A DNA stretch of 64,000 nucleotides from NCBI GenBank assembly GCA_038206725.1, contig JBBRAO010000004.1, positions 39,580 to 103,579 on the forward strand, read 5' to 3'. This DNA is from Candidatus Kapaibacterium sp. GTDB taxonomy: Bacteria > Bacteroidota > Ignavibacteria > Kapaibacteriales > UBA2268. A model generated the notes under the pieces. That model was not told the DNA's origin and searched no databases. It was given only the letters and a program-made list of their open reading frames with translations. The translations under genes and the position numbers were made by a program. This document shows, piece by piece, positions 703 to 46,714 of the stretch; the first letter of the stretch is position 1, and each line of letters begins with the position of its first letter.

Positions 703-2724
703 TTAATTTAGAATATTCTCAAAAATTAATTCTGCAATATCTTTTACTTTGACGTTTTCGACGTCCTTTGCTTTTAAACCGTCTTCAATCATTGTTAAGC
801 AAAACGGGCAATTCAAGGCAATACAATCGGGTGATGATTTCAGTAATTGCTCTGTTCTCTCGACATTTACACGTGTACCAATATGTTCTTCCATAAACAT
901 TTGTCCACCACCTGCACCACAGCAAAAGCCTTTTGATTTAGTTTTATCTGGTTCTAAAATATTTATTTTAGGAACTTTTTTTAGAAGCTTTCTGGGTTCA
1001 TCATAAATCGAATTGTATCTACCGAGGTAGCACGAATCGTGATATGCGATATTTATTTGTTTGTCATTGCTAACAATTAATGAACCGTTATTTATTAATT
1101 CATTTAGGAAAACCGAATGATGAACTACTTCAAATTTTGCTCCAAATTCAGGATATTCATTTTTAAAAGTATTATAGCAATGTGGACAGGTAACAACTAT
1201 TTTATTAAATTTATATTGATTAAGAACCTCAACATTTTGTTGTATCATCGTATCCGCCAAATATTCATTTCCGGTGCGGCGTGCTAAATCGCCATTACAA
1301 GATTCTTCTGTTCCTAATATCGCAAAATCAACGTTTGCTTTTTGCAAAAGTTTTGTAAATGCTACTGAAACTTTTTTTGCTCTGTCATCAAAGCTACCGG
1401 CACATCCAACCCAATAAAGAACGTCAAATTCCTTTTTGTCAGAAGCAAGAGGCACATTTAATCCTTCAGCCCAATCGGCTCTTTCCATCGGAGAGAATGC
1501 CCAAGGAGCTCCATTGTTTTCCAAATTAGCAAATAATCCTTGTAATTCTTCAGGAAAATCCGATTCCATCATAACTTTTGCGCGGCGCATAGAAACTATC
1601 GCCGGAACATGCTCAATCATAACAGGGCATTCCTGCATACAGGCACCACAACTCGTACAATTCCAGAGTTTTCCAGGTTCTTGGTAATCGCCGACATATA
1701 TTTTGTCAATAATATTTTGTTCTTTTTCTGTTAGTTTGTATTCTTCTTTGCTTTTAGAAGAATTCTGTTTTAATAATATAGGTAATTTATCAAATGAGCG
1801 ATTTCTGATTTGAACCATTATATCGCGCGGATCTAAGGGTTTTCCGGTAACATTGGCGGGGCAAACTGCAGTGCATCTTCCGCAATGAGTACAAGTAAAA
1901 CTATCTAAAATTGATTTCCAGGAATAATCAGTAACATCGGATACTCCGTATTGTTCTATTGTTTCATCAGCAAAATCAATACGATCAAGTTTATTCACCG
2001 GTTCTAAGGAAGAAAAATATACATTCGGAATTGATGAATATACGTGGAAGTGCTTAGAATAAGGCAAGTAATTCATAAATGCCAGTATCATTAAGCTATG
2101 TACCCAAAAAGCAATATTATGGATAGCTACAGCATTTTCAGGATTCAACAATAAGGCTAAGGATGATGATATTGGTCTAATAGCATACACAGCATCAACG
2201 TGTAAAACTATAGCGGATGCGTTTTCGAATAATAATCCTACAACAATCGTAAAGATTGATAATAAAACAATTAATGCATCTAATTTTTCGTGTTTATCAT
2301 CCATTTGCAGACGTTTTACTTTCACAACATATCGTCTAATTAAGGCAAATAAAACAGCAATTATTATTAAACCACAAAACAAATCTGTGAAAAACGTAAT
2401 TAAATAGTTGATTGCTCCTAAATTATCCCAAAAATTCGCTATCCCAAAACCTTTAAAAACAGAGGAAGAAGCAGAAAATAGCAGGATTAAAAAGCCCCAA
2501 AAAATGGCTAAATGGATAAATCCACCGGTAGGTTCTCTATAGATTTTCTTCTGGAAAAAGGCAATTCCCAAAACTTTAGCTAACCTTTTAGGAATATTAT
2601 CGAAACGATTTTCGTTTTTCGCTAATTTTAAATATTTGACATAACGTATTAAATTATAAGTTAAAAACGTAATTGCCGCCAAAAATATGACCATATAAAT
2701 AATGTTTTTTAATTCGAATTCCAT
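703..2724 (-). CDS. membrane-anchored Fe-S oxidoreductase (N-terminal polytopic His-rich membrane domain + 2x[4Fe-4S] ferredoxin motifs + 2 CCG cysteine-rich domains; HdrD/GlpC-like)
   Basis: 673 aa. About 6 predicted TM helices at the N-terminus. CTHCGRCTAVCP and CTSCGACMQECP ferredoxin-type motifs. C-terminal CCG-type cysteine motifs (WVGCAGSF, VVTCPHCYN, GFCCGAGGGQ). Confidence 0.65.
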   Translation of the reverse strand: MEFELKNIIYMVIFLAAITFLTYNLIRYVKYLKLAKNENRFDNIPKRLAKVLGIAFFQKKIYREPTGGFIHLAIFWGFLILLFSASSSVFKGFGIANFWDNLGAINYLITFFTDLFCGLIIIAVLFALIRRYVVKVKRLQMDDKHEKLDALIVLLSIFTIVVGLLFENASAIVLHVDAVYAIRPISSSLALLLNPENAVAIHNIAFWVHSLMILAFMNYLPYSKHFHVYSSIPNVYFSSLEPVNKLDRIDFADETIEQYGVSDVTDYSWKSILDSFTCTHCGRCTAVCPANVTGKPLDPRDIMVQIRNRSFDKLPILLKQNSSKSKEEYKLTEKEQNIIDKIYVGDYQEPGKLWNCTSCGACMQECPVMIEHVPAIVSMRRAKVMMESDFPEELQGLFANLENNGAPWAFSPMERADWAEGLNVPLASDKKEFDVLYWVGCAGSFDDRAKKVSVAFTKLLQKANVDFAILGTEESCNGDLARRTGNEYLADTMIQQNVEVLNQYKFNKIVVTCPHCYNTFKNEYPEFGAKFEVVHHSVFLNELINNGSLIVSNDKQINIAYHDSCYLGRYNSIYDEPRKLLKKVPKINILEPDKTKSKGFCCGAGGGQMFMEEHIGTRVNVERTEQLLKSSPDCIALNCPFCLTMIEDGLKAKDVENVKVKDIAELIFENILN

Positions 2725-2875
2725 CTTTTTTTCTTGTTAGTTTTGTAAAAAATATTAAATTAATTAGCGCTATATTCTTATATTTGAGAATTATTTTCGC
2801 CAATTTTAAGAATTTAAAAATAATAAAAAAAGATTAGAAACAAGCAAAATGTATCAATAATTTTAGGTGATTAGT

Positions 2876-5800
2876 ATGAACATCGTTTATTTATTTATAG
2901 GAATGTTATTAGTTACATCACATAGTATATTAGCACAAAACAAATTATACTATGAAGATAACGGTAAAATAACCGGTGCTTACACCGAACAAATTAACTT
3001 TGAAGAAACTTGTATTTTAAAACCGAATGTACCCTGTATGGTTGATACGGTTTATGTGTACTTGAAAGGTGGTTCCTCTTGCCGAGATACTGTATGGCTG
3101 GCTATGGATCCAAGCGATGGTTCATATCCGCCAACAGCTTGGGTGTTACATTACGCCGCTTACGCTGAATTAATTTTTCAATATACAGGTGAGGGTTGGT
3201 ACAAATTCGAGGTAAAAGATAAAGAAATAAATATAGGTGGATTTAATAGATTATGTATAATGCATCATATCAATGCTAATGGACCTGCGTTAGCATACGA
3301 TAATGTACCGCAAGGTAATGCTTATAATACAATACAATCGTGGATGTGCGATGTTTATAAGCCTAATCCCGATTTTTATAATATAGCAGGTACTTTAACA
3401 CAAAAAGCCGGCGGCCACTTTTTAGCACGCCTTTCAGTAAGATATCTTTTTAATGAAGAAGGAACACCACCTGCACCAACCATGGTTGATGCGACGATCC
3501 AAGCCAAGCTTACTGATAATTCAAATAACCCTCTATTAGATGCAATTGCTTCAGTTGCAGATTGGAATAATGATGGTTGGGATGATTTAGCTTTTGCTGG
3601 TTCCTTTTTTCAAAACAATAAAGATGGCACTTATACAAATGTAACATCAACAATAGGTATTACTGGAGGACAAACAGTATGGGGTGATATAGATAATGAC
3701 TCTTATGTTGATTGTTTTGTTGTTGGAGGCGGATTGAATGATAAAATTTTCTGGGGTAATGCTGACGGAACTTTTACGGAAAACACAGATGTGGTTATGA
3801 AAATTGACCAACCAACAGTAACTCCACTGCTGTTTGATTATAATAAAGATGGGCTTTTGGATATTTACATAGCTTATGGCAGGAAAGAAGTAAATGGAAC
3901 AGAAACTTATTTTCAAGATAGGCTTTACAAAAACATTGGTAATAGAAAATTTGAAAATGTAACTGTTTCTTCAGGCATTTCGAAAGGAGAGGTTGCACCG
4001 TTTTATGATTGTTGGGGAGCAAGTGTTTGCGATTATAACAATGATGGTTGGGTTGATGTTTTTGTTGCGACATATAGATTAGCACCCGATTTATTATATA
4101 AAAACAATGGAGACGGTACATTTACTGAAGTAGGTAAATCAACAGGTGCAAGAGGTACGGCTACAACAGATCCAAACTATTTCGGACACGGAATGGGATC
4201 GGATTGGGGAGATTATGACAATGACGGCGATTATGATCTTGCTATTGGTAATTTAGGTCATCCCGATTCACGAGGTCAAGTATCAAACCCTTCTTTGATT
4301 TTAGAAAATAATAATTCACAGACATTTACAAATGTTACTAATAAAAGAAGATTGCTTTTCTTCGAGATGAATGCGGGTATCGTTTGGGCGGATTTAAACA
4401 ATGATTCTTGGTTAGATTTAGTTCACGCAGAGTATTCTTACAATAGTAAAAGCACAACACCTGCACCCAATCATTCGCGATTTTATTTGAATACCGGTAA
4501 AGATGGAGAGTTTAAACTGGTAGATAAAACTTGGGAATGGGGTGCTTCAATTCACGGAGCGTGGTGCCCGATAAGATTGGATTATGATAACGATGGTGAT
4601 TTGGACATTCTTGTCGCAAGTAGTAATGAATCGGTTAAACTATTCAAAAATGGACTTCCTGACAAAGGTAATTGGGTAGAAATTAGATTAAAAGGCGATA
4701 AAACTTCAGGAGTGAATTCATTAGGTTATGGTGCATCAGTGATTCTTGAATCAAATAATAACAGTTATATTAGAAATTTACCCGGTTCGGTTATTAATGG
4801 TCGCGCGGCACAAAGTTCTAACATACTTCATTTTGGTTTAGGGGAGTCAGCAAAAGTGGATAAGATTACTGTTAATTGGAATAACCCTGCCAAAGATGTT
4901 ACAATAATCGAAAACCCTCCTGTTAATTTAATATTGGAAATTGGTAAAAATGGACTCCTCAACCAAGGGAATGCGGCATTACTAGCACTTGATAAATCAA
5001 TCCTAGATTTTGGAACCATTAATTGCAACGAATCTAAGGAAATGACTTTAAAAGTTTCGAATATTGGAGTTAACGATGCTAATTTATCTGATATTAAAAT
5101 TGAGTCTGACAATGCTTTTAAGTTAAAAACGACCTTTACGCCAAAACTTTTAAAAGCAGGAGAAACTACTGATATTAGTGTCATTTTTAATCCTACTGAG
5201 AAGAACATTTATAAATCATATTTAACAATTACTAATAATGCAATGAATTTTACTGTTGGAAAGGTTTTATTGAAGGGTTTTGGATATAAGCCATCAGGTG
5301 AAATTAAATCAAAAACTCAATTGATTGATTTTGATACTGTTTTAGTTGACGATGAGAGAACTCAAATTATTCCGATTGAGAACATTGGTGAAAACGTACT
5401 AACTATAAATACTATGAACGTTATATCAAATTCATCAAATTATTTTACTATTGAAAACAGTGCATTACCGATAGCAATTCCGGTTGGTGATTCTTATGAC
5501 TTAAAACTGAAATTCAAACCTCTTTCTGAAACGGCTATCAATGGTAAGTTGGTTATTAATTCCGATGCGTATTTATATTCAAAATTAGAAATTCCCTTAA
5601 AAGCTTTCGGTGAAGAGAGAAAACCAATTATTACAACATCTGAGAAAGTTATTCAATTTGAAAAAACAAAAATAGGGGATACAACGTATAAAGAACTTCA
5701 AATAATCAACAAAGGTAACAAAGATCTTGAAGTAACCGGGATGGAGATTATTATGAATAAGAAATCCGAATTTGGACTTAAAGATTTCAATCCACCATAC

Positions 5801-12648: not shown

Positions 12649-14526
12649 TTATATTCGTGTTCTACATATTAACTTTATATTTGGTATATATCTACTTTTA
12701 TTATTTACGGTTTGTTTTTCGTACCAACCGGATAAATTCAAATCTGACTCTTTCAAAAATGACAAATTGATTTGTACCTGAGGACCGAATGAGAAATGTT
12801 CGTAAAGTTTCCCGTTAATTTTATTTTGCAGATCATTTCTTTGAAATCCATAAACCCTTATACCTGCACCAATAGTTATATCACTAAATACTTTTGTTAC
12901 TAAAATTTTATTTTCAAATTCAAAGTTACCAATTTGCGGTATCTCTGAAAATTCTTTCCAAAGTAAAATTCCATTTACAAAATAACGAATAAAATTGATT
13001 CCTTGCAAATGAATTGTTGGAGTCAGTTTAAATAGTATTGAATCACGATATGATATTTGTCGGAAACTATAGCTTCTTGCAGATGCTGAAGTACTCTCAT
13101 AATCATATATTGTGTAATTTGCTAAAACTTCAGTCGCAGGAGCGTATTCAAAATTTTTATATTTTAATCTAACAAAAGGGGAGAAGCGGATAATTCGGTT
13201 CTTATAGTTTTGGGAACTTCGTTGACTTTTTAAAAAAACTAAATGCTTAAAGCGTATTTCGCCAAGTAAACCCATTGATATATGAGCATTAACCTTTCGA
13301 TAATAATTAAGCAGAAAGATTTCATTTAATTCATCCTTATCATCATTATTTATGTTTTCCGGAGTGTCGTATCTATAAATCGAAATCAATCCATTCCAAG
13401 ATAAACTATCTTTATTTCCGATAAGCCAAAATCCATTTGATCCGATAGATGATGATAAAGCACTATTGTTTAGTGATGTTTCTTGTTTCTTGAGATTCTG
13501 ATATTCGTTATCTTCGATAGCAAAAAGTTTGTTTAAGCGATAATTCTCATTTCTATTGAAAACCTTTGCGTTTAAAACAGCTTTCAACTTTTTAACTGAA
13601 TATACTATATCTAAGTTTAAATCAATAAAAAAAGTGTTATTCACTCGTTCTAATGAAGAATAGGAGATAGGTTCATATTTCTGCATAAAAGAACGATTTA
13701 CGGAGCTGTTTGCAACCATTAACTTTGAGGATACAAAAAAGTTACTAGGTAATTTGAATTTCATAAACAAATTGGTTGCCAGATTATTTTCAAAACGATT
13801 TTCAATAAGGCTGGTGGTTGCATTTGAATAATAGGATATATAATCTTTATTCAAATAATTATATTCTAAATCGAATGATAAAATATCATTTTTAGAGTAA
13901 GTTCCTGTTATTTCACTTTTTAAGTTCAAGTCATTATTATTTCTTTTATCCCTCAATTGCACTGATTCATAGCAGAAGTTAGTTGCGATATTATACACAT
14001 CAGAAAGTTTTTCATCTATATCAGTATTAATACCATATACAATCCCGTTAGATTTCAATGTGTTCTGCTGATTGTATTCAAAACCGGATAATGCGGAGAT
14101 TTTTGAGTTTTTAAAGAAATCATACTGAAGACCGAGATTAGAATTTGCTCTTTGAAAAGTATTGTTATCGTTCTTTACATTGTCGGAGGTTAATTGCCAA
14201 TTATTAGTGAACAAGATTTTAAATTTTCCAATATCCTTCGACTGAAAATAAAGAGAGAAGATCTCTTGGTCACGAAAGTTTACGCTTTCGGTTTCAACAG
14301 CATCTCCTCTATAATTTTGAAATAAACCAATTTCTCCAATATTTGTTTTGAATGATTTACAAGCATCCATATTAAAATTATATATGTTCGAAATTTTATC
14401 GAAGCCATAATTCAAATATTCCGCATTAATATCATCATATTTATACTGGAAAAGTAATTCTGATTTTGTTTCATTGCTAATTACTACTAGCAGAACAAAA
14501 ATAATCATTATGATAGGTTTATTCAA
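12649..14526 (-). CDS. hypothetical secreted protein, Asn/Tyr/Ser-rich, possible outer-membrane beta-barrel
   Basis: 625 aa with signal peptide MNKPIIMIIFVLLVVISNE. Alternating aromatic/hydrophilic segments and C-terminal aromatic residue. No recognisable catalytic motif. Confidence 0.3.
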   Translation of the reverse strand: MNKPIIMIIFVLLVVISNETKSELLFQYKYDDINAEYLNYGFDKISNIYNFNMDACKSFKTNIGEIGLFQNYRGDAVETESVNFRDQEIFSLYFQSKDIGKFKILFTNNWQLTSDNVKNDNNTFQRANSNLGLQYDFFKNSKISALSGFEYNQQNTLKSNGIVYGINTDIDEKLSDVYNIATNFCYESVQLRDKRNNNDLNLKSEITGTYSKNDILSFDLEYNYLNKDYISYYSNATTSLIENRFENNLATNLFMKFKLPSNFFVSSKLMVANSSVNRSFMQKYEPISYSSLERVNNTFFIDLNLDIVYSVKKLKAVLNAKVFNRNENYRLNKLFAIEDNEYQNLKKQETSLNNSALSSSIGSNGFWLIGNKDSLSWNGLISIYRYDTPENINNDDKDELNEIFLLNYYRKVNAHISMGLLGEIRFKHLVFLKSQRSSQNYKNRIIRFSPFVRLKYKNFEYAPATEVLANYTIYDYESTSASARSYSFRQISYRDSILFKLTPTIHLQGINFIRYFVNGILLWKEFSEIPQIGNFEFENKILVTKVFSDITIGAGIRVYGFQRNDLQNKINGKLYEHFSFGPQVQINLSFLKESDLNLSGWYEKQTVNNKSRYIPNIKLICRTRI

Positions 14527-19014: not shown

Positions 19015-19020
19015 CTATAA

Positions 19021-19047
19021 AATCTCCCTTGGGAGATTTTTTTTTGT
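19021..19047 (+). terminator. rho-independent terminator
   Basis: AATCTCC-cttg-GGAGATT followed by TTTTTTTTT. Confidence 0.55.
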
Positions 19048-19152
19048 ATTATTCTTAACAAAAATCAAAAGAATTATTAATATTTCTTAATTTTTTGTTA
19101 ATTTTGTAGTTTATTTTGATTAAAATAATAATAATTATAAATAAGGGATGAA

Positions 19153-21075
19153 ATGGGAAAATTTAAATTTAAACCTTTCGACCAGATGACACCAGAAGAT
19201 TATGCGGAAATCGGCTTTATGTCCGGTTTAGAAGTACACCAGCAGTTGCTAACAGAATCTAAACTATTTTGCCGCTGTCCTGCCGGTCATCTTCATAGAG
19301 ATGGCTACCACTCCGAAATATTAAGGCATATGCGCCCTACCCTATCTGAATTAGGTGAGTATGACGGCACAGCTTTAATGGAGTTTAAAACCAAAAAAAA
19401 TATAACCTATCGAGTACATTACGATACAGTCTGTACTTATGATATGGATGATACACCTCCTTTTATGATTGATGAAACAGCTCTCGATATTTCTATCGAA
19501 GTTGGTTTATTATACGGTGCATCAATAACAGATGAATTGCATATTGCGAGAAAACAATATTTGGATGGTTCTATTCCTACTGGTTTTCAAAGAACTGCAA
19601 TCACTTGCGTAGGTGGTTCTGTACCATATAAAGATAGAGAAATCAAACTAATCCAAATGTCAATCGAGGAAGATTCGTGTCGAGAGCTAACCGATATAGG
19701 TCACGATAGAGTATATCTACCTGATAGATTAGGCACTCCTCTAATCGAAACAGTTACTCATCCTGAGATGAAAACTCCTCAAGAAATAGCAGATGTAAAT
19801 AATATTATTCGCCGTTTAGCACGTCAAACCGGAAAAGTAAGGACCGGTATGGGTGCTGGACGTCAAGATGTTAATGTTTCTGTTCGCGGTGGAACCAGGA
19901 TTGAAATTAAGGGTGTATCAAAAATCAACTATATTCCAAAATTAGCCTATCACGAGTCGATGCGTCAATGGAATTTACTTTTGTTAAGAGACGAGTTACA
20001 CGCACGTGGAATAAATAAAGATACATTTAATGCGGATACACTTGATGTAACCCATTTGTTAAAAAAGACCATTTATCCCCCACTTGCCGAAGCAATCGCA
20101 AGAGATTGGAAAGTATATTGTGTAAACCTGCACGGGTTCAAAGACCTATTAAATTGGGAAACACAGACCGATACCTATTTTTCAAAAGAAATATCAGATA
20201 GAGTACGTGTAATTGCTTGTTTAACAGTATTACCAAATATACTTCATTCCGATAATTCACGTGAAAAATTAACTGCTACAGAATGGACCAAACTCAAAAA
20301 AGCAGTTAGTGCTACTAATGAAGATACAATCGTATTGGTTTGGGGTGACGATAGAGACGTAGTAACAGGTGCTAAAGAAGTAATAATTAGAGCTAAAGAA
20401 GCGACAATAGGTATTCCGTCTGAAACAAGACAAGCTCTTGATGATAGCACAAACGGTTTTGAAAGAATACTTCCGGGACCTGAGAGGATGTATCCTGATA
20501 CAGATTTGCCTCCTTTGACGATAACAAAAGAAAGATTAGACAGAATAAGAGCTCAGATGCCTGTTCCTTATTGGGTTCGCGAAAAATGGCTGAAACAATT
20601 AAACGTTCAAGCTGATTTAGTTAGCGAGCTATCTGTTTCGAAATTTTTTGTTCTTTTCGAAAAAGCTGTTAAAGATTATCATATATCACCAAAGGTTGCG
20701 GCAAACATTTTAATAGGATTCCCGAGAAGACTAAAGAAAAACCGATTCAACATAAATATATTAAAAGAAGAGATATATCTAAACATTTTTGAATTGATTA
20801 ATAACAAACAATTGGTCAAAGACGGTATCTATTCGTTGATGCTAAAAATTTGCATAAAGGGTGGTTTAGATGAGGCTATTTTACCAAAAACAGTTGATAA
20901 CGTAGAAATTAATAAAACTGTTGTTGAATGTATTAATGAAATGACAAAAATGAAAGTACACAACTCTGACAAAGCAGATCATGTATTAATGGGATTAGTT
21001 ATGAACAACCTGCGCGGAAGAGTTAACGGATCGGATATATTTAATTTTATCAATAATCGCAAACAGGAGGCTTAA
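19153..21075 (+). CDS. gatE: Glu-tRNA(Gln) amidotransferase subunit E, archaeal type
   Basis: 640 aa. SGLEVHQQLLTESKLFCRCP, MRPTLSELG, GFQRT, RLGTPLIETVTHPEM, GAGRQDVNVSVRGGTRIEIKGV track the GatE (not the about 480-aa GatB) architecture as I recall it, including the inserted domain and C-terminal YqeY-like tail. GGGA SD 6 nt upstream. Confidence 0.7.
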   Translation: MGKFKFKPFDQMTPEDYAEIGFMSGLEVHQQLLTESKLFCRCPAGHLHRDGYHSEILRHMRPTLSELGEYDGTALMEFKTKKNITYRVHYDTVCTYDMDDTPPFMIDETALDISIEVGLLYGASITDELHIARKQYLDGSIPTGFQRTAITCVGGSVPYKDREIKLIQMSIEEDSCRELTDIGHDRVYLPDRLGTPLIETVTHPEMKTPQEIADVNNIIRRLARQTGKVRTGMGAGRQDVNVSVRGGTRIEIKGVSKINYIPKLAYHESMRQWNLLLLRDELHARGINKDTFNADTLDVTHLLKKTIYPPLAEAIARDWKVYCVNLHGFKDLLNWETQTDTYFSKEISDRVRVIACLTVLPNILHSDNSREKLTATEWTKLKKAVSATNEDTIVLVWGDDRDVVTGAKEVIIRAKEATIGIPSETRQALDDSTNGFERILPGPERMYPDTDLPPLTITKERLDRIRAQMPVPYWVREKWLKQLNVQADLVSELSVSKFFVLFEKAVKDYHISPKVAANILIGFPRRLKKNRFNINILKEEIYLNIFELINNKQLVKDGIYSLMLKICIKGGLDEAILPKTVDNVEINKTVVECINEMTKMKVHNSDKADHVLMGLVMNNLRGRVNGSDIFNFINNRKQEA

Positions 21076-22467
21076 ATGTCACAAGATAGTGAAGATTATA
21101 AAGGATATCGCGGGATAGCCTTAGAGGTTTTGAAAAAATTTAACACTCTTGTTTGGTGTGATGTAATTTGTGATCACGAATCCGGAATATTCGAAGGTTT
21201 TATATTACCACGTTCAGAAACCGCAGATGATGCCCATATCGTTATCAAATTGATTACAGGATATAATGTTGGTTTAAAAGCGGATAGGATTAAAAATATA
21301 ACCGTTCGTGGACGTAAAATTGCTGTTTATAAAATTCCTGAACAAGATTTCCCTTATGAAAAAAATAAACCTAGAGTAAAACTTTTTGGAACTGGTGGTA
21401 CAATTGCATCTCGTTTAGATTATCGTACCGGTGCTGTAATTCCTGCCTTTTCACCGGGTGAATTATATGGCTCTGTACCTGAATTAGCAGACTATTGTAA
21501 TTTAGAAACAGAAAAGCTTTATGGAGTATTTTCTGAAAATATGGGACCTGCCGAATACATCGGTTTAGCAAATGGTATAGCCAAAGAAATCGAAAAAGGA
21601 GTTGCCGGCATAGTTATTGGTCACGGAACCGATACATTGCATCATACTTCAGCAATATTATCGTTTATGATCCAAAATTCTCCTGTTCCTATCGTTATGG
21701 TTGGTTCACAACGTTCATCAGACAGACCTTCATCCGATGCGGCACTAAATCTTATCCATAGCGTTAAAACTGCCGGCGAAAGCGATATAGCGGAAGTTAT
21801 GGTTTGTATGTTCGGTCCAACATCAGATGAGTATGGTTTATTACATCGTGGTACAAGAGTTCGTAAAATGCATTCCAGTTATCGTTCAACATTCAGAACT
21901 TTGAGCGATATTCCAATAGCAATGGTCAGTAGAGATAAAATAACACCACTACGCCAAGATTATGCGCGCAGAAGAGATGATAAAAACTTCAAACTGATGC
22001 CGTACTTTGAGGAGCGTGTTGGCATTGTTTATTATTATCCAAATATGCACCCAGATATGATTGATTCTATGATAGAGAATGGTTATAAAGGAATAGTAAT
22101 CGCTGGTACGGGTTTAGGTCACGTCAATAAGCCTCTTTATCCTGCATTAGAAAGAGCTCAAAAAGCCGGTGTCGCTGTTTATATGACAGTACAAACATTG
22201 CACGGTTATGCTCAAATGTATGTTTATGAAACCGGTCGCGTAATGATGGACTTAGGTGTAATAGCCGCAGGAAATATGTTGCCGGAAGTAGCTTATGTTA
22301 AATTATGTTGGGCATTAGGTCAGACCAACGATTTAGAAGAAGTGAAAAGAATAATGCTTACCCCTATTAATGGTGAAACTACTCCACGTGAACCATCAAA
22401 CGGATATTTGATGTTCCAAGGTGGCGTTCCTGAAGTTGAAGCATTTATTGGAAGAAACCGTAAATAA
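21076..22467 (+). CDS. gatD: Glu-tRNA(Gln) amidotransferase subunit D, archaeal type (asparaginase-like)
   Basis: 463 aa. Start immediately after the gatE stop. N-terminal extension then type-I asparaginase fold (LFGTGGTIASRLDYRTGAV; GIVIGHGTDTLHHTS; RKMHSSYRSTF), which is the GatD arrangement. Confidence 0.65.
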   Translation: MSQDSEDYKGYRGIALEVLKKFNTLVWCDVICDHESGIFEGFILPRSETADDAHIVIKLITGYNVGLKADRIKNITVRGRKIAVYKIPEQDFPYEKNKPRVKLFGTGGTIASRLDYRTGAVIPAFSPGELYGSVPELADYCNLETEKLYGVFSENMGPAEYIGLANGIAKEIEKGVAGIVIGHGTDTLHHTSAILSFMIQNSPVPIVMVGSQRSSDRPSSDAALNLIHSVKTAGESDIAEVMVCMFGPTSDEYGLLHRGTRVRKMHSSYRSTFRTLSDIPIAMVSRDKITPLRQDYARRRDDKNFKLMPYFEERVGIVYYYPNMHPDMIDSMIENGYKGIVIAGTGLGHVNKPLYPALERAQKAGVAVYMTVQTLHGYAQMYVYETGRVMMDLGVIAAGNMLPEVAYVKLCWALGQTNDLEEVKRIMLTPINGETTPREPSNGYLMFQGGVPEVEAFIGRNRK

Positions 22468-22490: not shown

Positions 22491-22525
22491 AAGGGCTGAT
22501 TTGTTTTAAACCAGCCCTTTTTTAT
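22491..22525. terminator. bidirectional terminator hairpin between convergent gatD and acyl-CoA ligase genes
   Basis: AAGGGCTG-(loop)-CAGCCCTT followed by TTTTTT on + and preceded by A-run on the other strand. Confidence 0.5.
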
Positions 22526-26277: not shown

Positions 26278-28269
26278 ATGGATAATATCGAAAATAATGC
26301 AATTTTTTTTAATCTAACGATAATTATAATATTTCTACCCCTACTCGGATTTATTATAAATGGAATATTCGGCAAAAAAATTAACAATGAAAAAATTATT
26401 GGGATTATCGGTACATCAACAGTTTCGATTTCCTTTTTTGCTTCATTATATTTATTTATTTATACAAACACTTATCATATTCCCCGAATAGTTGTCAATC
26501 TTTACAAATGGTTGAATATCGGAGATTTTCAGATAAATGTATCTTACCAAATTGATAATCTTTCCCTGATTTTTATGATGGTTATAACCGGTGTCGGTGC
26601 TTTGATACATATTTATTCAATCTCATATATGCACAAAGACCGGAGTTTCTATCGGTTTTTTGCATATCTTAACTTGTTTATATTTATGATGTTGAATTTA
26701 GTTGCTTCAAGCAATTTACTCCTGACTTTTTTTGGTTGGGAAGGTGTCGGTTTATCGTCATATTTGCTAATAGGTTTTTGGTATGATCGAGAATTCAAAG
26801 GTTATAATATTAAATTAACTAAAGATGCCGCAAATAAAGCATATATAGTTAATAGAATTGGCGACTTCGGTTTTTTAATTGCTGTCTTTTTAATCTTCAC
26901 TGTTTTCAAAACATTCGAATATTCAAATATCGCTCAACAGGCAATTGATAATAAGGCACTTTATCAAAACTCAACCAATGCGCTGTTAATTAGTTTGTTT
27001 ATGTTCTTAGCTTGTACAGGAAAGTCAGCACAATTACCCCTATCTGTTTGGTTACCGGATGCGATGGCCGGACCTACACCTGTTTCAGCATTAATACACG
27101 CGGCAACTATGGTTACTGCCGGTATTTTCTTGGTGGCACGGAACTCGGTGCTTTTCGCAATGTCGGATGTTACTATGGGAATTGTAACGATAATAGGAAT
27201 ATTAACAGCACTTTATGGTGCATTTTCGGCAATAACACAGACAGACATAAAGAAAGTTTTGGCATTTTCAACAGTCAGTCAACTTGGCTTTATGTTCGCC
27301 GCTTTAGGTATGGGAGCTTATTCCGCCGCTGTTTTTCACGTAGTTACACACGCTTTCTTCAAGGGTTTGTTGTTTTTGGCCGCCGGGTCTGTAATTCACT
27401 CAATGCACGACGAGCAAGACATATTAAAAATGGGCAATCTAAAGAAATATATGCCTGTTACATTTATAACATTTTTGATGGGAACGTTAGCTATATCAGG
27501 AATACCGCTTTTTAGTGGATTCTTCTCCAAGGATGAAATATTATGGAATGTTTATTCCAATGGGAATGTACTCTATTGGTTGTTTCTATTAATTGCTTCT
27601 CTTACAACAGCATTATATATGTTCCGTATGTTATATTTAGTATTCTTCGGAAAAGAAAAATTCAATACAGCTGAAGTACATCCTCACGAATCACCACGAT
27701 TAATGACAATTCCTCTTTCCATATTGGCAGTTTTATCAGTGATTGGTGGTTTTATAGGAATACCGTATAGTCTTGGTTTTTGGTTTAGCAAACATCCGAA
27801 TCTATTTGATGGAGCTCTATTTAAAATCTTCAGTGACGCTCGCGCTGTACTTCTATTAGAAAACCATAACAGTATCGAACCAATTGAATATGTTTTGATG
27901 ACGATCACAGTTATATTAATAATATCCATTATTATTATAGCGAGAAAGTTCTATTTAAAACGCGAATACTCTATTAGTAAAAAACTAGCTGATAGTACAA
28001 TTTATAAATTGTCCTTAAATAAATTTTACCTCGATAATATTTATTATACAATCATCGTTAATCCTTTGATTTGGGTTTCTGATAAGGTATTCAAAAATAT
28101 TGTTGATAACATTATGATTGACGGATTAATACACACAATATCACAAAAGACAATTGACCTCGGCTTATCTATTAGAAAAATACAAACCGGAAAAATAAAG
28201 GATTACATATATAGCCTTACATTCGGAGTAATTTTAATTTTAGTAATTGTCATAATCGCATTTCTATAA
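26278..28269 (+). CDS. nuoL: NADH-quinone oxidoreductase subunit L (antiporter-like, long C-terminal helix)
   Basis: 663 aa. WLPDAMAGPTPVSALIHAATMVTAGIFL. About 16 TM plus C-terminal extension. Confidence 0.75.
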   Translation: MDNIENNAIFFNLTIIIIFLPLLGFIINGIFGKKINNEKIIGIIGTSTVSISFFASLYLFIYTNTYHIPRIVVNLYKWLNIGDFQINVSYQIDNLSLIFMMVITGVGALIHIYSISYMHKDRSFYRFFAYLNLFIFMMLNLVASSNLLLTFFGWEGVGLSSYLLIGFWYDREFKGYNIKLTKDAANKAYIVNRIGDFGFLIAVFLIFTVFKTFEYSNIAQQAIDNKALYQNSTNALLISLFMFLACTGKSAQLPLSVWLPDAMAGPTPVSALIHAATMVTAGIFLVARNSVLFAMSDVTMGIVTIIGILTALYGAFSAITQTDIKKVLAFSTVSQLGFMFAALGMGAYSAAVFHVVTHAFFKGLLFLAAGSVIHSMHDEQDILKMGNLKKYMPVTFITFLMGTLAISGIPLFSGFFSKDEILWNVYSNGNVLYWLFLLIASLTTALYMFRMLYLVFFGKEKFNTAEVHPHESPRLMTIPLSILAVLSVIGGFIGIPYSLGFWFSKHPNLFDGALFKIFSDARAVLLLENHNSIEPIEYVLMTITVILIISIIIIARKFYLKREYSISKKLADSTIYKLSLNKFYLDNIYYTIIVNPLIWVSDKVFKNIVDNIMIDGLIHTISQKTIDLGLSIRKIQTGKIKDYIYSLTFGVILILVIVIIAFL

Positions 28270-28285
28270 TTTATCGAATTAAAGT

Positions 28286-29803
28286 ATGAATCCATTATTA
28301 ATAACTCTTCTTATTCCGATATTAGGTGCAACATTTATTCAATTGTTACCTAGAGATAAACCGAAAATAATTCACAGATCAGCCTTGATTTTTTCAGTAA
28401 CTGCATTTTTAATTTCGCTTGTTTTATTGTTTGGGTTTAAAACAAATATTGAACAATATCAATACTACGCATACTATCCCTGGATTAGTGATCTAAATGC
28501 AGGTTTTAGAATTGGTATAGATGGTCTTTCCTTAATGTTAGTTTTGCTTACAACATTTATTATTCCGCTGGCGATATGGATTTCTTCAGATTCGATTAAG
28601 GTAAATATAAGGCAATATTATAGTTTAATTCTTCTTTTGGAATTCTCTATAATTGGTGTTTTTATTTCGTTAGATTTGCTTTTATTCTATGTTTTTTGGG
28701 AATTGATTCTCATTCCAATGTATTTCATTATAGGTATTTGGGGTGGAAAGAACAAGATTTACGCAACCGTCAAATTCTTTATATATACAATGGTTGGTTC
28801 ACTCATAATGATAATCGGAATAATCTGGTTGGGTCATTATGTGGGAACTTATATCATTCATAATTCGGTGGGTTTCACTACCAGTTTGGTTGAAATTCAA
28901 CGATATGCTAATCAAATACCTATCAACATACAAAATATACTATTTTGGATGTTTGCCATATCATTTTTAATTAAAGTTCCAATTTTCCCGTTACACACTT
29001 GGTTGCCTGATGCCCATACAGAGGCTCCTACAGCCGGATCTGTAATACTAGCGGGCATCCTGTTAAAAATGGGAACTTATGGTTTGATTCGGTTTAATTT
29101 AGGAATTTTACCCCAGGCGAGTCTTGCCTTTGCACCATTCATAGTATCTCTAGGCGTTGTGGGAATCATTTATGGCGGATTGTTAGCAATGGTGCAGAAG
29201 GATATGAAGAGGCTGGTAGCCTATTCTTCTGTAGCTCATATGGGGTTTATCATAATCGGTATTTTCTCTTTTACGGTTATCGGTATGCAAGGTGCCATCA
29301 TTCAAATGATAAATCACGGCCTTTCGACAGGTATGCTTTTTATTGCGGTTGGGTTCTTGTATGACCAACGACACACACGTTTAACCGAAGATTATGGTGG
29401 TATAGCACGATTAATTCCGCGGTTTTCAGTATTTTTTGGATTGGCAGTATTTGCTTCAATCGGCTTACCGGGCTTAAACGGCTTCGTAGGAGAGTTTATG
29501 GCTTTATACGGAACATTCTCTTCCCCATTCCTGAATAATCACACATACGCAATTGTAGCGAGCTTAGGAGTTATCATAGCGGCGGTTTACTTACTTGTAA
29601 TGTATAAAAAGGCATTTTTTGGAAAAATTACTAATCCTGACAATAATATTTTAAAAGATATAAACTTGAAATATGGGATAATCTTTGTAATTATTACTTT
29701 CTTTATGTTCTGGATTGGTTTATTCCCGAGTCATTTCCTAAAATTTTCAGAAACAACAACTAACAAATACATTAACAACATTGAATTAATTATTGATAAA
29801 TAA
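28286..29803 (+). CDS. nuoM: NADH-quinone oxidoreductase subunit M
   Basis: 505 aa. HTWLPDAHTEAPTAGSVILAGILLKMGTYGLIRF. Confidence 0.75.
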   Translation: MNPLLITLLIPILGATFIQLLPRDKPKIIHRSALIFSVTAFLISLVLLFGFKTNIEQYQYYAYYPWISDLNAGFRIGIDGLSLMLVLLTTFIIPLAIWISSDSIKVNIRQYYSLILLLEFSIIGVFISLDLLLFYVFWELILIPMYFIIGIWGGKNKIYATVKFFIYTMVGSLIMIIGIIWLGHYVGTYIIHNSVGFTTSLVEIQRYANQIPINIQNILFWMFAISFLIKVPIFPLHTWLPDAHTEAPTAGSVILAGILLKMGTYGLIRFNLGILPQASLAFAPFIVSLGVVGIIYGGLLAMVQKDMKRLVAYSSVAHMGFIIIGIFSFTVIGMQGAIIQMINHGLSTGMLFIAVGFLYDQRHTRLTEDYGGIARLIPRFSVFFGLAVFASIGLPGLNGFVGEFMALYGTFSSPFLNNHTYAIVASLGVIIAAVYLLVMYKKAFFGKITNPDNNILKDINLKYGIIFVIITFFMFWIGLFPSHFLKFSETTTNKYINNIELIIDK

Positions 29804-31262
29804 TTGGATTATAAATTTTATGCTATTTACGTTTTTACCGATTTTATCGCTTACAGCTTTTATTTTAATCATAATTATTATTGAAGCTTTTGTTAAGAAT
29901 AAAGATATTGTTTATCATTCAACTTTAGTTGCATTAATATGCGTTGGATTGACAGTAATATTCAATTTTAATAAGAACACTGATTTTCTACCGGATTTTA
30001 TCTCCAAAATGCTTGTATTTGGCAATCTACCATCATTTTTCGATTTGCTTTTTATTCTTTCCGGTTTATTAATAGTCTATTTAACAAAAGGGTATTTGGC
30101 GAGATTATATTCTCATTTATCTGAATTCTATCCCCTATTGCTTACCTCAATTTTCGGAATGATGCTAATTTCACATTCAAAAAATCTATTAGTTTTGTTT
30201 ATAGGTATCGAGATAATGTCTATATGTTTTTATGCACTGTCCGGTTTTATTCGTACCGATATCAAGGCAATAGAGGCATCCATAAAGTATTTTATCATTG
30301 GTTCATTTGCAACAGGATTCTTACTATTTGGCATATCTTTTATATACGGCGCAACAGGAAGTTTGGATTATCAAGCAATTTTTCAAGGGGTTATTTATAA
30401 CCAGTTGACTAATAATCTATATCTATTAATTGGTGTTAGTTTATTAATTATTGGATTAGGGTTTAAATTAGCGGTCTTCCCTTTTCATCAATGGGCTCCG
30501 GATGTTTACACAGGTGCTCCGACAATAGTATCCGGGTTTATGTCCACTGCCGGCAAAGCCGCCGGATTTATAGCATTAATCTCCTTTGTTTCAAGAATAT
30601 TAATGAACATAGAGTACGTTCATTCCTCGATTCAAGGTAATTTAATAAATCTTCAGTATATTATTGCCGGAATAGCCGCTTTAACAATGATAATCGGTAA
30701 TATCACAGCACTAGTACAAAAGAATTTTAAGCGTATGTTGGCTTATTCATCAATAGCACACGCCGGATATATGTTGATGGGTGTGGTTGCGGCAAATTAT
30801 GCAGGAATAAAAGGAATTGCATTTTATTTGTTGGCATACACATTTATGCAGATTGGTGCTTTTGTTGTTGCGGCTTCGCTTGAAAATGATTCGTCAACGG
30901 AAGTATCATTAATACATTTCAAAGGCTTGGCGAAAAAACAACCTTTGTTAGCCGCGTTAACATCTGTTATGATGTTTTCATTAGTAGGTTTACCACCTTT
31001 TGCAGGATTCTTTGGCAAATATTTATTATTTAAATCCGCCATCGAAGGTGGATTTATGTGGCTTACAATTGTAGCTATCATAGCATCTATGATTTCCATA
31101 TATTACTATATTAGGATAATAATAGAGATGTATTTTAGCAAAGAAGAGTCAGCTATAACTGTAGTAAATTTAAATTATAATAAAGTTGTATTGATTTTTT
31201 GTACTGCGGCCATTATAATCTTAGGAATTTTTCCAAATGTAATTCTTAAATTATTCAACTAA
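29793..31262 (+). CDS. nuoN: NADH-quinone oxidoreductase subunit N
   Basis: 489 aa. FHQWAPDVYTGAPTIVSGFMSTAGKAAGF. Annotated start overlaps nuoM by 11 nt; a downstream in-frame Met may be the real start. Confidence 0.7.
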   Translation: MINNWIINFMLFTFLPILSLTAFILIIIIIEAFVKNKDIVYHSTLVALICVGLTVIFNFNKNTDFLPDFISKMLVFGNLPSFFDLLFILSGLLIVYLTKGYLARLYSHLSEFYPLLLTSIFGMMLISHSKNLLVLFIGIEIMSICFYALSGFIRTDIKAIEASIKYFIIGSFATGFLLFGISFIYGATGSLDYQAIFQGVIYNQLTNNLYLLIGVSLLIIGLGFKLAVFPFHQWAPDVYTGAPTIVSGFMSTAGKAAGFIALISFVSRILMNIEYVHSSIQGNLINLQYIIAGIAALTMIIGNITALVQKNFKRMLAYSSIAHAGYMLMGVVAANYAGIKGIAFYLLAYTFMQIGAFVVAASLENDSSTEVSLIHFKGLAKKQPLLAALTSVMMFSLVGLPPFAGFFGKYLLFKSAIEGGFMWLTIVAIIASMISIYYYIRIIIEMYFSKEESAITVVNLNYNKVVLIFCTAAIIILGIFPNVILKLFN

Positions 31263-42612: not shown

Positions 42613-42686
42613 GCCGGAGTAGCTCAGCTGGTTAGAGCACTGGAATCATAATCCAGGTGTCGGGGGTTCAAATCCCTCCTCCGGTA
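42613..42686 (+). tRNA. tRNA with CAT anticodon (Met elongator or Ile2/lysidine type); CCA not encoded
   Basis: Cloverleaf readable by eye. Acceptor GCCGGAG/CTCCGGT (G1-U72 wobble). U8A9. D-arm GCTC-AGCTGGTTA-GAGC. Anticodon stem CTGGA/TCCAG with loop ATCATAA. Variable GTGTC. T-arm GGGGG-TTCAAAT-CCCTC. Confidence 0.8.
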
Positions 42687-42704
42687 CACCAAAAAAAATA
42701 TCCC

Positions 42705-42738
42705 AAGGTATGATATAAAAATCATACCTTTTTTTTAT
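42705..42738 (+). terminator. rho-independent terminator after tRNA
   Basis: AAGGTATGAT-ataaaa-ATCATACCTT followed by TTTTTTTT. Confidence 0.6.
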
Positions 42739-42749
42739 TTGTTTCCGTA

Positions 42750-42815
42750 TTACTATTAATTTTGAAATGAATGCATTATTTTGTAATTTCGCATATCATT
42801 TATTGAGAAGATGTA
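42750..42815 (+). repeat. conserved intergenic element copy A (about 65 bp; hairpin TCATTTAT-N13-GTAAATGA)
   Basis: ATTTTGAAATGAATGCATTATTTTGTAATTTCGCATATCATTTATTGAGAAGATGTAGGTAAATGA. Near-identical to copy B, related to copy C. Confidence 0.6.
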
Positions 42816-43013
42816 GGTAAATGAGTGCGTGAGTTATGGTCTTTATTAGAAAAAGACGCTAATCGCAGTAAATAACATAGAAAAAAGGTAATTAGAGCAA
42901 CTGATAAAATTATCAATATCGTTTGTTTTTGCTTTCGACCAAAGCGATTTGGAAACAGGATAAATTATGCACACTGATTGTGGGATTTCTAACTTAAAAA
43001 TATAAGAACAATT

Positions 43014-44911: not shown

Positions 44912-45039
44912 TGCTATCAAACGTCCGGCAATATTTCAGTTCTGCGATTGAATCGGCATTTGTACTTGATTTGCATTTCTTGTACTGAAACAAAACGATT
45001 CTCTTATTTTTGCCGGTTAAAATAAATAGTATCGAATAT

Positions 45040-45105: not shown

Positions 45106-45186
45106 AGAATGGCGACGGAAATTTAAAGAGCATATAAAGAATGGAAACTGAAAAGAAAGACGTAATTCTATTAAACAATTTATTCA

Positions 45187-46667: not shown

Positions 46668-46714
46668 ACAACATTTATGAACAGAAATCTAAAGAACTAA
46701 CATAAAAAAGAAAT

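What the first reader, a model, noticed from the sequence alone, without database searches (positions are those of the whole stretch)
19153..22467. Archaeal-type GatE-GatD amidotransferase operon in a bacterial genome
The 640-aa protein follows the GatE architecture rather than the shorter bacterial GatB (SGLEVHQQLLTESKLFCRCP, MRPTLSELG, GFQRT, RLGTPLIETV, GAGRQDVNVSVRGGTRIEIKGV, extra inserted domain). The next gene, starting one nucleotide after the gatE stop, is an asparaginase-fold protein with an N-terminal extension (TGGTIASR, GHGTDTL), which is exactly the GatD design. GatDE is regarded as an archaeal signature enzyme for Gln-tRNA(Gln) formation. The surrounding genes are unambiguously bacterial: T9SS cargo, OmpA porins, sigma54 EBP, Obg. 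So this is either an ancient feature of this lineage or a horizontal acquisition. Either way it is informative about how this organism makes Gln-tRNA and Asn-tRNA.
Basis: partly seen in the sequence, partly recalled or inferred. Interest (0 to 1): 0.6.

Follow-up and report, generated by a model that had tools for sequence, protein, structure and literature searches.

The report
Bacterial GatE-GatD tRNA amidotransferase operon
This bacterial chromosome carries an intact, strongly conserved two-gene operon for GatDE, the enzyme that converts glutamate to glutamine on tRNA and that reviews still call exclusive to archaea; it belongs to a large, old, purely bacterial branch of the family that databases already label but that I found discussed in no paper.

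Summary
ORFs 19153-21075 (640 aa) and 21076-22467 (463 aa) exceed NCBI's curated equivalog cutoffs for GatE and GatD. They fail every GatB cutoff. Both align full-length to the two archaeal GatDE crystal structures and keep all catalytic residues. The genes are native to a bacterial chromosome: GC3 matches the neighbours, dN/dS is 0.03 and 0.02 against a 93%-identical relative, and the flanking genes are bacterial.

The operon is not peculiar to this genome. gatD follows gatE in 80 of 81 related loci with room for it. Named relatives are Ignavibacteria, Kapabacteria, Bacteroidota, CSSED10-310 and "Deltaproteobacteria" MAGs, and NCBI already calls them GatE.

All bacterial GatE sequences form one clade (50/50 bootstraps). 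It is about as diverse as the archaeal clade and about 32% identical to it, so this is an ancient trait, not a recent transfer. A GatB-rooted tree weakly places the clade beside Heimdallarchaeota.

The likely function is Glu-tRNA(Gln) to Gln-tRNA(Gln). Two archaeal tRNA-recognition motifs are altered. Coexistence with GlnRS and GatCAB could not be tested. Reviews up to 2022 still state GatDE is archaea-only. This is a new member of a known kind, of moderate interest.

The parts
19019..19040 (+). Hairpin terminator of the upstream DUF6580 gene. It marks the 5' boundary of the gatED transcription unit.
   Evidence: 9-bp stem, 4-nt loop, followed by a T-run. Sequence.
19041..19152 (+). AT-rich intergenic region that presumably holds the gatED promoter. 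A sigma-70-like match lies at 19055-19084 and a weak AAGGG lies 6 nt before the ATG.
   Evidence: The promoter-like matches are no more frequent than in shuffled sequence (18 found against 19.4 expected), so the promoter is inferred, not shown.
19153..21075 (+). gatE: the tRNA-dependent kinase/transamidase subunit (640 aa). It has a cradle domain, an AspRS-like insertion domain, a helical domain and a YqeY-like tail.
   Evidence: H29/E172/E199 correspond to the Mg2+ ligands His15/Glu157/Glu184 of M. thermautotrophicus GatE.
21076..22467 (+). gatD: the glutaminase subunit (463 aa). It has a GatD_N domain followed by the asparaginase N- and C-terminal domains. Its start codon directly abuts the gatE stop, which is consistent with translational coupling.
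   Evidence: T106/T109, H183-G-T185-D186 and K264 are invariant in 65 bacterial GatDs.
22491..22519 (.). Bidirectional hairpin terminator shared with the convergent acyl-CoA ligase gene. It marks the 3' boundary of the operon.
   Evidence: 12-bp stem with 5 GC pairs; a T-run follows on the + strand.

Best explanation
The two genes encode a functional heterodimeric (probably alpha2-beta2) GatDE-type tRNA-dependent amidotransferase that is native to this bacterium. By analogy with the archaeal enzyme, GatE binds Glu-tRNA(Gln) made by a non-discriminating GluRS. It phosphorylates the gamma-carboxyl with ATP/Mg2+. It then amidates it with ammonia that GatD releases from glutamine or asparagine and passes through an intramolecular tunnel, giving Gln-tRNA(Gln). 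Family membership, intact catalytic residues, operon structure, strong purifying selection and long residence in bacteria are shown here. The tRNA substrate, the partner synthetase and the relationship to any GlnRS or GatCAB in the same genome are inferred. The operon is a lineage-wide trait of a monophyletic bacterial GatDE clade (Ignavibacteria/Kapabacteria and several other bacterial groups), not a recent import.
For: Equivalog HMM scores lie above the curated cutoffs for both subunits, and all GatB models fail. Both proteins align full-length to both archaeal GatDE crystal structures. The AlphaFold model (pLDDT 89.4) matches 1zq1_C and 2d6f_C/D best (TM on target 0.79-0.81), ahead of the GatB chains, with weak extra hits to AspRS and YqeY that fit the insertion and tail domains. 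The equivalents of the Mg2+ ligands, H29/E172/E199, are invariant in 27 diverse bacterial GatEs (residues defined in PMC2330236). The GatD Thr nucleophile and Thr-Lys-Asp triad motifs are invariant in 65 bacterial GatDs. gatD follows gatE in 80 of 81 loci that have room for it. dN/dS is 0.029 for gatE and 0.020 for gatD against L001. GC3 is 0.27 and 0.24, against 0.24-0.30 for neighbouring genes. The context is bacterial in the window and on 2.9-3.8 Mb bacterial contigs. The insertion domain that is predicted to exclude AspRS sterically is retained (PMC2330236), which favours Glu-tRNA(Gln) over Asp-tRNA(Asn) as substrate. In six divergent loci a glutamine synthetase gene sits immediately upstream on the same strand, which fits use of a glutamine-derived amide.
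Against: No activity was measured. The archaeal GatE tail motif GXXAXGX, implicated in telling tRNA(Gln) from tRNA(Asn) (PMC2811023), reads SDKADHV in the query, and its first Gly is lost across the bacterial clade. The Arg of the basic K-V-K-R-G loop next to the tRNA 1:72 pair is present in 73 of 76 archaeal sequences but is Thr in the query and in 22 of 47 bacterial sequences. Archaeal GatDE recognises A1-U72, whereas bacterial GatCAB recognises a U1-A72 pair in bacterial tRNA(Gln), so substrate recognition must differ in some way. A cultured relative, Ignavibacterium album, is tabulated as having both GlnRS and gatCAB (PMC3927822). If that holds here, GatDE would be redundant for Gln-tRNA(Gln). 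No GluRS, tRNA(Gln), GatCAB or GlnRS gene was found near gatED in 88 loci (about 975 kb), so there is no genomic linkage to the pathway.
Confidence: 0.72

Rival explanations
1. Division of labour or redundancy. The organism also has GatCAB and/or GlnRS. GatDE would then be a second, Gln-dedicated amidotransferase, as in archaea where GatDE makes Gln-tRNA and GatCAB makes Asn-tRNA. Alternatively it could be a conditionally used back-up route, for example under particular nitrogen regimes.
For: PMC3927822 lists Ignavibacterium album with one GluRS, GlnRS present and gatCAB present. The archaeal precedent for two amidotransferases with split roles is in PMC2330236. Glutamine synthetase is linked to gatED in six loci. 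Strong purifying selection shows the enzyme is needed whatever else is present.
Against: It was not shown here that I. album itself carries gatED, because only MAG names appeared among named hits. At least one pipeline labels a bacterial GatE as 'gatB' (P0321), so a published 'gatCAB present' call could in principle rest on GatE. No GatA or GatB gene was found in any fetched locus, although only +-10 kb was visible.
Confidence: 0.45
2. Altered specificity. The bacterial GatDE clade has changed its tRNA recognition. [quoted passage not shown]
For: The tail GXXAXGX motif is not conserved, and the archaeal invariant Arg of the 1:72 loop is variable. The host is bacterial, and PMC2330236 and PMC2811023 describe bacterial GatCAB recognising a U1-A72 pair in its tRNA substrates.
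Against: The AspRS-excluding insertion domain is retained. The tail region has not acquired GatB's KxGKxK motif, and its net charge does not differ from that of archaeal GatE. No tRNA(Gln) or tRNA(Asn) gene of the lineage could be examined.
Confidence: 0.25
3. Recent horizontal transfer from an archaeon, or an archaeal fragment mis-assembled or mis-binned into a bacterial contig.
For: The family is otherwise archaeal, and NCBIfam itself names the models gatE_arch and gatD_arch.
Against: GC and GC3 cannot be told apart from the neighbouring genes. Bacterial genes lie on both sides on one contig. The same operon lies in different bacterial contexts on megabase contigs. Identity to any archaeal GatE is only 30-36%. 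The bacterial clade is monophyletic in 50/50 and 40/40 bootstraps.
Confidence: 0.02
4. GatB plus an ordinary type I L-asparaginase, with no GatDE at all.
For: GatD also passes the type I asparaginase subfamily model (TIGR00519, 364 bits against a cutoff of 260), and GatE shares the GatB_N and GatB_Yqey Pfam domains.
Against: All six GatB equivalog models fall far below their cutoffs. The GatE and GatD equivalog scores are higher than any alternative and lie above their cutoffs. The ~160-residue insertion inside GatB_N, the GatD_N domain and the conserved gene pairing are specific to GatDE.
Confidence: 0.01

Closest known systems
Archaeal GatDE (Methanothermobacter thermautotrophicus, PDB 2D6F; Pyrococcus abyssi, PDB 1ZQ1)
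   Same: The subunit pair and all four GatE domains are the same, as are the GatD_N plus asparaginase fold, the Mg2+ ligands and the Thr/Thr-Lys-Asp catalytic residues. Alignment is full-length.
   Different: The host is a bacterium. GatE is only about 31-36% identical to the solved chains, and the model-to-PDB identity is 31-36%. The first Gly of the tail GXXAXGX motif is lost, and the conserved Arg of the loop next to the 1:72 pair is Thr. The sequence belongs to a separate, bacteria-only clade.
Asgard archaeal GatDE (Heimdallarchaeota P0157/P0275; Thorarchaeota P0187)
   Same: These are the nearest archaeal relatives in the GatB-rooted NJ tree: Heimdall with or without three unnamed sequences is sister to the bacterial clade in 23 of 30 bootstraps. 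The Thorarchaeota locus has the same gatE-then-gatD order with a 2-nt spacer. Query GatD is 51% identical to the Heimdall GatD.
   Different: In the Heimdall locus gatD is divergent from gatE, and in L095 gatE stands alone. The archaeal sequences keep the G-x-x-A tail motif.
Bacterial GatCAB (for example Staphylococcus aureus, PDB 3IP4)
   Same: The chemistry and the cradle-domain fold are the same. GatB is the paralogue of GatE, with TM on target 0.67-0.79. It is the established bacterial route to Gln-tRNA and Asn-tRNA.
   Different: GatCAB uses an amidase-family GatA plus GatC rather than an asparaginase-family GatD. GatB lacks the AspRS-like insertion and has the 3-10 turn and KxGKxK motif, which the query lacks. 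GatB HMMs score 60-146 bits against cutoffs of 314 or more.

Membership tests
GatE (NCBIfam NF003107 / TIGR00134, Glu-tRNA(Gln) amidotransferase subunit E) | Whole-protein score above the curated equivalog cutoff | tested here: met
   515 bits against 456, and 448 bits against 320.
GatE (NCBIfam NF003107 / TIGR00134, Glu-tRNA(Gln) amidotransferase subunit E) | Four-domain architecture: cradle, AspRS-like insertion (absent from GatB), helical domain and YqeY-like tail | tested here: met
   The Pfam GatB_N match spans residues 24-462 for a 277-position model, which implies an insertion of about 160 residues, and GatB_Yqey matches 501-634. Alignment to 1zq1_C and 2d6f_C runs the full length. The model (pLDDT 89.4) hits GatE chains best, with weak AspRS and YqeY hits. 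The Pfam GAD model itself did not reach E<=0.001 on the query.
GatE (NCBIfam NF003107 / TIGR00134, Glu-tRNA(Gln) amidotransferase subunit E) | Mg2+-binding kinase residues (M. thermautotrophicus His15, Glu157, Glu184) | tested here: met
   These correspond to H29, E172 and E199, which are invariant in 27 bacterial sequences.
GatE (NCBIfam NF003107 / TIGR00134, Glu-tRNA(Gln) amidotransferase subunit E) | Tail-domain GXXAXGX motif used to tell tRNA(Gln) from tRNA(Asn) | tested here: not met
   The query reads S-D-K-A-D-H-V. The first Gly is present in 44 of 76 archaeal sequences but is Pro (23 of 47) or another residue in the bacterial clade. This motif bears on specificity and is not a condition for family membership.
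GatE (NCBIfam NF003107 / TIGR00134, Glu-tRNA(Gln) amidotransferase subunit E) | Short basic loop in place of GatB's 3-10 turn, next to the tRNA 1:72 base pair | tested here: inconclusive
   The loop has the GatE length and reads K-V-R-T-G, against archaeal K-V-K-R-G. The Arg found in 73 of 76 archaeal sequences is Thr here.
GatE (NCBIfam NF003107 / TIGR00134, Glu-tRNA(Gln) amidotransferase subunit E) | Transamidation of Glu-tRNA(Gln) but not Asp-tRNA(Asn) | not testable with these tools
   This needs a biochemical assay.
GatD (NCBIfam TIGR02153 / NF003217, Glu-tRNA(Gln) amidotransferase subunit D) | Whole-protein score above the curated equivalog cutoff | tested here: met
   495 bits against 324, and 491 bits against 310.
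GatD (NCBIfam TIGR02153 / NF003217, Glu-tRNA(Gln) amidotransferase subunit D) | GatD-specific N-terminal domain in front of the asparaginase N- and C-terminal domains | tested here: met
   PF18195 at 38-77, PF00710 at 100-290 and PF17763 at 314-427.
GatD (NCBIfam TIGR02153 / NF003217, Glu-tRNA(Gln) amidotransferase subunit D) | Thr nucleophile and Thr-Lys-Asp triad | tested here: met
   TGGTIAS starts at residue 106, HGTDT at 183 and RKMH at 263. All are invariant in 65 bacterial GatDs and shared with the archaeal GatDs.
GatD (NCBIfam TIGR02153 / NF003217, Glu-tRNA(Gln) amidotransferase subunit D) | Encoded together with GatE | tested here: met
   The start codon abuts the gatE stop. The pairing holds in 80 of 81 loci with room for it.
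GatB (bacterial Asp/Glu-tRNA amidotransferase subunit B) | Score above the GatB equivalog cutoffs, with no insertion domain | tested here: not met
   Scores are 60-146 bits against cutoffs of 314-680. GatB crystal chains align only to residues ~105-279.
Stand-alone type I L-asparaginase | Asparaginase fold with no GatD_N domain and no GatE partner | tested here: not met
   The subfamily model TIGR00519 is passed (364 bits against 260). However, the GatD equivalogs score higher, the GatD_N domain is present and the gene is coupled to gatE.

The most novel reading that the evidence does not exclude
Bacteria hold an ancient GatDE lineage of their own, about as diverse as the archaeal one. [quoted passage not shown] It would serve either as the sole route to Gln-tRNA(Gln), and possibly Asn-tRNA(Asn), or as a dedicated second amidotransferase beside GatCAB. 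If its root lies between the bacterial and archaeal clades rather than inside archaea, GatDE would stop being an 'archaeal signature' and would instead support the proposal that both amidotransferases were present in LUCA.
Probability: 0.25. Interest if true: 0.75.

Novelty: new member of a known kind. Interest (0 to 1): 0.55.

Why it matters
GatDE is cited in primary papers and in reviews up to 2022 as an archaea-only signature protein. Arguments about early evolution of the genetic code, and about why archaea never acquired GlnRS, lean on that exclusivity and on the co-evolution of GatDE with archaeal A1-U72 tRNA(Gln).

A large bacterial GatDE clade under strong selection removes the exclusivity. 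It also offers a natural experiment: the same enzyme working with bacterial tRNAs, possibly alongside GlnRS and GatCAB. That makes three questions directly testable: how first-base-pair recognition evolves, why some cells keep two amidotransferases, and whether GatDE predates the split between archaea and bacteria.

The limit on the claim is that annotation pipelines already name these genes correctly. What is new is the recognition and analysis, not the detection.

Tried and rejected
- **tRNA(Gln) of the lineage.** I scanned the window and 87 loci for tRNAs, hoping to read the 1:72 pair. Only Met, Pro, Asp, Lys, His and Arg tRNAs turned up, so this could not be tested.
- **GatB, GatA and other paralogues near gatED.** phmmer searches with GatE, GatD, B. 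thuringiensis GatB and a GatA fragment against all ORFs of 88 loci found none.
- **Same-genome check for glnS, asnS and gatCAB.** This was impossible. My single genome-contig scan went on a one-protein query that returned only 3 loci, and the other tools show only +-10 kb around a gene.
- **Extending the window's own contig.** This added about 3.7 kb with nothing relevant at one end. The terminal protein at the other end is not on record.
- **Looking for a cultured isolate with GatE.** A profile of Ignavibacteria-labelled GatEs returned only MAG names. Whether I. album or M. roseus carries gatED remains unknown.
- **Idea that the bacterial tail motif became GatB-like or more basic.** I rejected this. 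Aligned with four real GatBs, the bacterial clade shows no KxGKxK motif, and its net charge (+0.56) is not above the archaeal value (+0.85).
- **Natrinema GatE as an archaeal anchor.** I dropped it because the gene is frameshifted in that record.
- **Conserved synteny beyond the gene pair.** The best recurring neighbours (acyl-CoA dehydrogenase in 11 loci, PhoH/PIN in 10 loci) have no link to translation.
- **Literature.** Searches for GatDE with Ignavibacteria, for gatE/gatD with HGT, and for K03330/K09482 found no report of bacterial GatDE. Sheppard and Soll 2008 (PMC2366055) is not held.
Full report
**Observation**

All the quoted peptide motifs are present. The gatE stop codon (TAA, 21073-21075) is followed directly by the gatD ATG at 21076. 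An AGGAGG lies at 21065-21070 inside the end of gatE. Upstream, the preceding DUF6580 gene ends in a hairpin with a T-run (19019-19040), followed by about 110 nt of AT-rich spacer. Downstream, a 12-bp bidirectional hairpin (22491-22519) separates gatD from a convergent acyl-CoA ligase gene. The pair is therefore a self-contained two-gene operon.

**Identity of the proteins**

Against NCBIfam, the first protein scores 515 bits on NF003107 (cutoff 456) and 448 bits on TIGR00134 (cutoff 320), both of them GatE equivalogs. The six GatB equivalogs score only 60-146 bits against cutoffs of 314-680. The second protein scores 495 bits on TIGR02153 (cutoff 324) and 491 bits on NF003217 (cutoff 310), both GatD.

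Pfam shows GatB_N stretched over residues 24-462 for a 277-position model, which implies a large insertion. It also shows GatB_Yqey in GatE, and GatD_N followed by Asparaginase and Asparaginase_C in GatD.

Against the PDB, GatE aligns over residues 16-639 to the GatE chains of P. abyssi (1zq1_C, 1.5e-90) and M. thermautotrophicus (2d6f_C, 1.3e-86). GatB chains match only residues ~105-279 at about 1e-20. GatD aligns full-length to 1zq1_A (3e-117) and 2d6f_A (7.5e-110), far ahead of free asparaginases at about 1e-38.

An AlphaFold model of GatE (mean pLDDT 89.4, pTM 0.86) finds the archaeal GatE chains first (TM on target 0.79-0.81), then the GatB chains. Weak hits to bacterial AspRS and to YqeY fit the insertion and tail domains.

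The residues shown by mutagenesis to bind Mg2+ in M. thermautotrophicus GatE are His15, Glu157 and Glu184 (PMC2330236). They correspond to H29, E172 and E199, which are invariant in an alignment of 27 diverse bacterial homologues. The asparaginase-type Thr nucleophile and Thr-Lys-Asp triad motifs of GatD (TGGTIAS at 106, HGTDT at 183, RKMH at 263) are invariant in 65 full-length bacterial GatDs.

**The host is bacterial and the genes are resident**

The flanking genes include Obg, dihydroorotase, a sigma-54 response regulator and NuoL/M/N. Further out are ribosome recycling factor, SurE, ETF, T9SS cargo with Por_Secre_tail and four OmpA paralogues.

GC is 0.36 for gatE and 0.38 for gatD. GC3 is 0.27 and 0.24, which cannot be told apart from the neighbouring genes at 0.24-0.30.

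Against the closest relative (L001, a MAG contig with 93% identical GatE), dN/dS is 0.029 for gatE and 0.020 for gatD at saturating dS of about 1.4. Both genes are therefore under strong purifying selection.

**Distribution**

The exact protein is already in NCBI. A word-indexed search returned at least 8000 homologous clusters. The best 120 are 60-92% identical to the query. Where named, they come from Kapabacteria, Ignavibacteria or Bacteroidetes MAGs and are already called GatE. A second search with a profile gave the same picture, with the added labels "FCB group" and "Bacteroidota" and one sequence mislabelled "gatB".

Of the 80 loci kept, together with those fetched earlier, gatD follows gatE on the same strand in 80 of the 81 loci that have room for it. 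The exception is L067.

The flanks differ between lineages. They include a Trp operon, ribosomal protein bL19 and hybrid histidine kinases, on contigs of up to 3.8 Mb. The pair therefore moves as a unit within bacterial chromosomes and is not tied to a mobile element.

**Phylogeny**

An exhaustive HMMER search of 1.84 billion cluster representatives gave 633 proteins at E<1e-30. Their similarity to the query falls into two groups: 39-55% identity at 415-611 bits, then a drop to 30-36% at 358 bits or less.

An NJ tree of 123 full-length sequences splits into two clades. Clade A contains the query and every sequence with a bacterial name: Ignavibacteria, Kapabacteria, Bacteroidetes, candidate division CSSED10-310 and two "Deltaproteobacteria" MAGs. 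Clade B contains those with archaeal names: Heimdallarchaeota, Thermoprotei and Thorarchaeota. The archaeal loci carry archaeal hallmarks such as the S13/S4/S11 cluster, PolB and PolD DP2.

The A|B split is recovered in 50 of 50 bootstraps. Median identity is 44% within A, 40% within B and 32% between them. The bacterial clade is therefore about as diverse as the archaeal one.

I added four GatB outgroups recovered from the plasmid collection. Clade A remains monophyletic (40/40) but the archaeal sequences do not (1/40). The sister of the bacterial clade is the Heimdallarchaeota sequence, with or without three unnamed relatives, in 23 of 30 bootstraps. It is all archaea in the other 7. GatD agrees in direction: the query is 51% identical to the Heimdall GatD and 43% to the Thor GatD.

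These are distance trees with an outgroup more than 2 substitutions per site away. I treat "one ancient transfer from an Asgard-like archaeon" as a lead only. A root on the branch between bacteria and archaea is not excluded. What is secure is a single origin for all bacterial GatDE and no recent archaeal donor.

**Mechanism**

The established GatDE mechanism has three steps: GatE phosphorylates Glu-tRNA(Gln), GatD releases ammonia from Gln or Asn, and the ammonia travels through a tunnel to amidate the intermediate (PMC2330236). This is the best-supported reading, because all catalytic features and the subunit pairing are intact. Retention of the insertion domain, which modelling predicts to clash with AspRS, favours Glu-tRNA(Gln) as the substrate.

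Two recognition features differ from archaeal GatE:

- **The loop beside the tRNA 1:72 pair.** It reads K-V-R-T-G in the query against archaeal K-V-K-R-G. The Arg is present in 73 of 76 archaeal sequences, but in the bacterial clade the position is Thr in 22 and Arg in 18 of 47.
- **The tail motif GXXAXGX.** This motif is implicated in discriminating tRNA(Gln) from tRNA(Asn) (PMC2811023). It reads SDKADHV in the query and lacks its first Gly across the bacterial clade.

I tested whether this region had become GatB-like or more basic. It has not.

Archaeal GatDE reads A1-U72, whereas bacterial GatCAB reads a U1-A72 pair in bacterial tRNA(Gln). Some adaptation of recognition is therefore expected. 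I could not obtain a tRNA(Gln) gene from the lineage.

**Pathway context**

No other Gat gene and no aminoacyl-tRNA synthetase is in the window. No GatA or GatB lies within +-10 kb of gatED in 88 loci. Six divergent loci have glutamine synthetase immediately upstream on the same strand.

The only literature pointer is a 2014 survey that lists Ignavibacterium album with one GluRS, GlnRS present and gatCAB present (PMC3927822). If gatED co-occurs there, it would be one of three possible routes to Gln-tRNA(Gln). That co-occurrence was not shown here, and the mislabelled "gatB" is a caution about such tables.

**Comparison with what is known, and novelty**

Every paper I could find states that GatDE is exclusive to archaea: PMC2811023 (2009), PMC2330236 (2008), PMC8007984 (2021), PMC8762117 (2022) and PMC9499178 (2022). 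No held paper mentions a bacterial GatDE. NCBI and JGI pipelines nevertheless already name these bacterial proteins GatE and GatD.

The proteins pass every structural and catalytic membership test for the family. This is a new (bacterial) membership of a known kind, with modest variation in tRNA-recognition motifs. It is not a new kind of system. The interest is moderate. The finding contradicts a statement repeated through the literature and opens testable questions, but it is typical of the lineage, visible in public annotation, and its physiological role remains unresolved here.

Noticed in passing
window 53103-58047 (+): Four tandem paralogous genes, each with bacterial TSP3 repeats and a C-terminal OmpA domain (53103-54305, 54433-55539, 55717-56808, 56971-58047).
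   Followed up: no
window 42613-47994: A tRNA-Met (42613-42687) is followed, about 2.5 kb further on, by the lowest-GC stretch of the window (0.29). That stretch carries a PD-(D/E)XK_4 nuclease (45187-46314), an HNH endonuclease (46715-47281) and a Fic/DOC protein (47425-47994). It may be a small integrated island or a cluster of defence genes.
   Followed up: no
window 26278-31262 and 58403-63350: There are two separate clusters of Nuo/Mrp-type membrane subunits: NuoL/M/N, and a second set with Proton_antipo_M, NADHdh and Proton_antipo_M.
   Followed up: no
window 12649-14526 (-): A 625-aa ORF next to obg has no Pfam or NCBIfam match.
   Followed up: no
L067 9998-11977: This is the only related locus with a full-length gatE, about 9.9 kb of downstream sequence and no gatD anywhere in the 21.9 kb held. 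A convergent ORF abuts gatE instead.
   Followed up: partly
L078 8663-9967 and five other divergent bacterial loci: A glutamine synthetase gene (Gln-synt_N and Gln-synt_C) lies immediately upstream of gatE on the same strand in six loci of the more divergent bacterial sub-clade.
   Followed up: partly
L093 (Natrinema thermotolerans megaplasmid CP031304, locus 2668-4631): The haloarchaeal gatE is split between two reading frames and is not annotated in the record. This is either a frameshift or a pseudogene.
   Followed up: partly
P0321: One Ignavibacteria MAG record labels its GatE orthologue 'gatB'. Such mislabels could inflate published counts of genomes scored as having gatCAB.
   Followed up: no
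L094, L095, L096: Gene order varies among Asgard-like archaea. In the Heimdall locus gatD is divergent from gatE. In L095 gatE stands alone, about 3 kb from a class II aminoacyl-tRNA synthetase (tRNA-synt_2 family) gene. In the Thor locus the order is gatE then gatD, as in bacteria.
   Followed up: partly
plasmid collection hits H2, H12, H14: Several PLSDB 'plasmid' records of 2.2-3.7 Mb (N. gonorrhoeae, A. baumannii, Acetoanaerobium noterae) carry gatB and look like whole chromosomes filed as plasmids.
   Followed up: no
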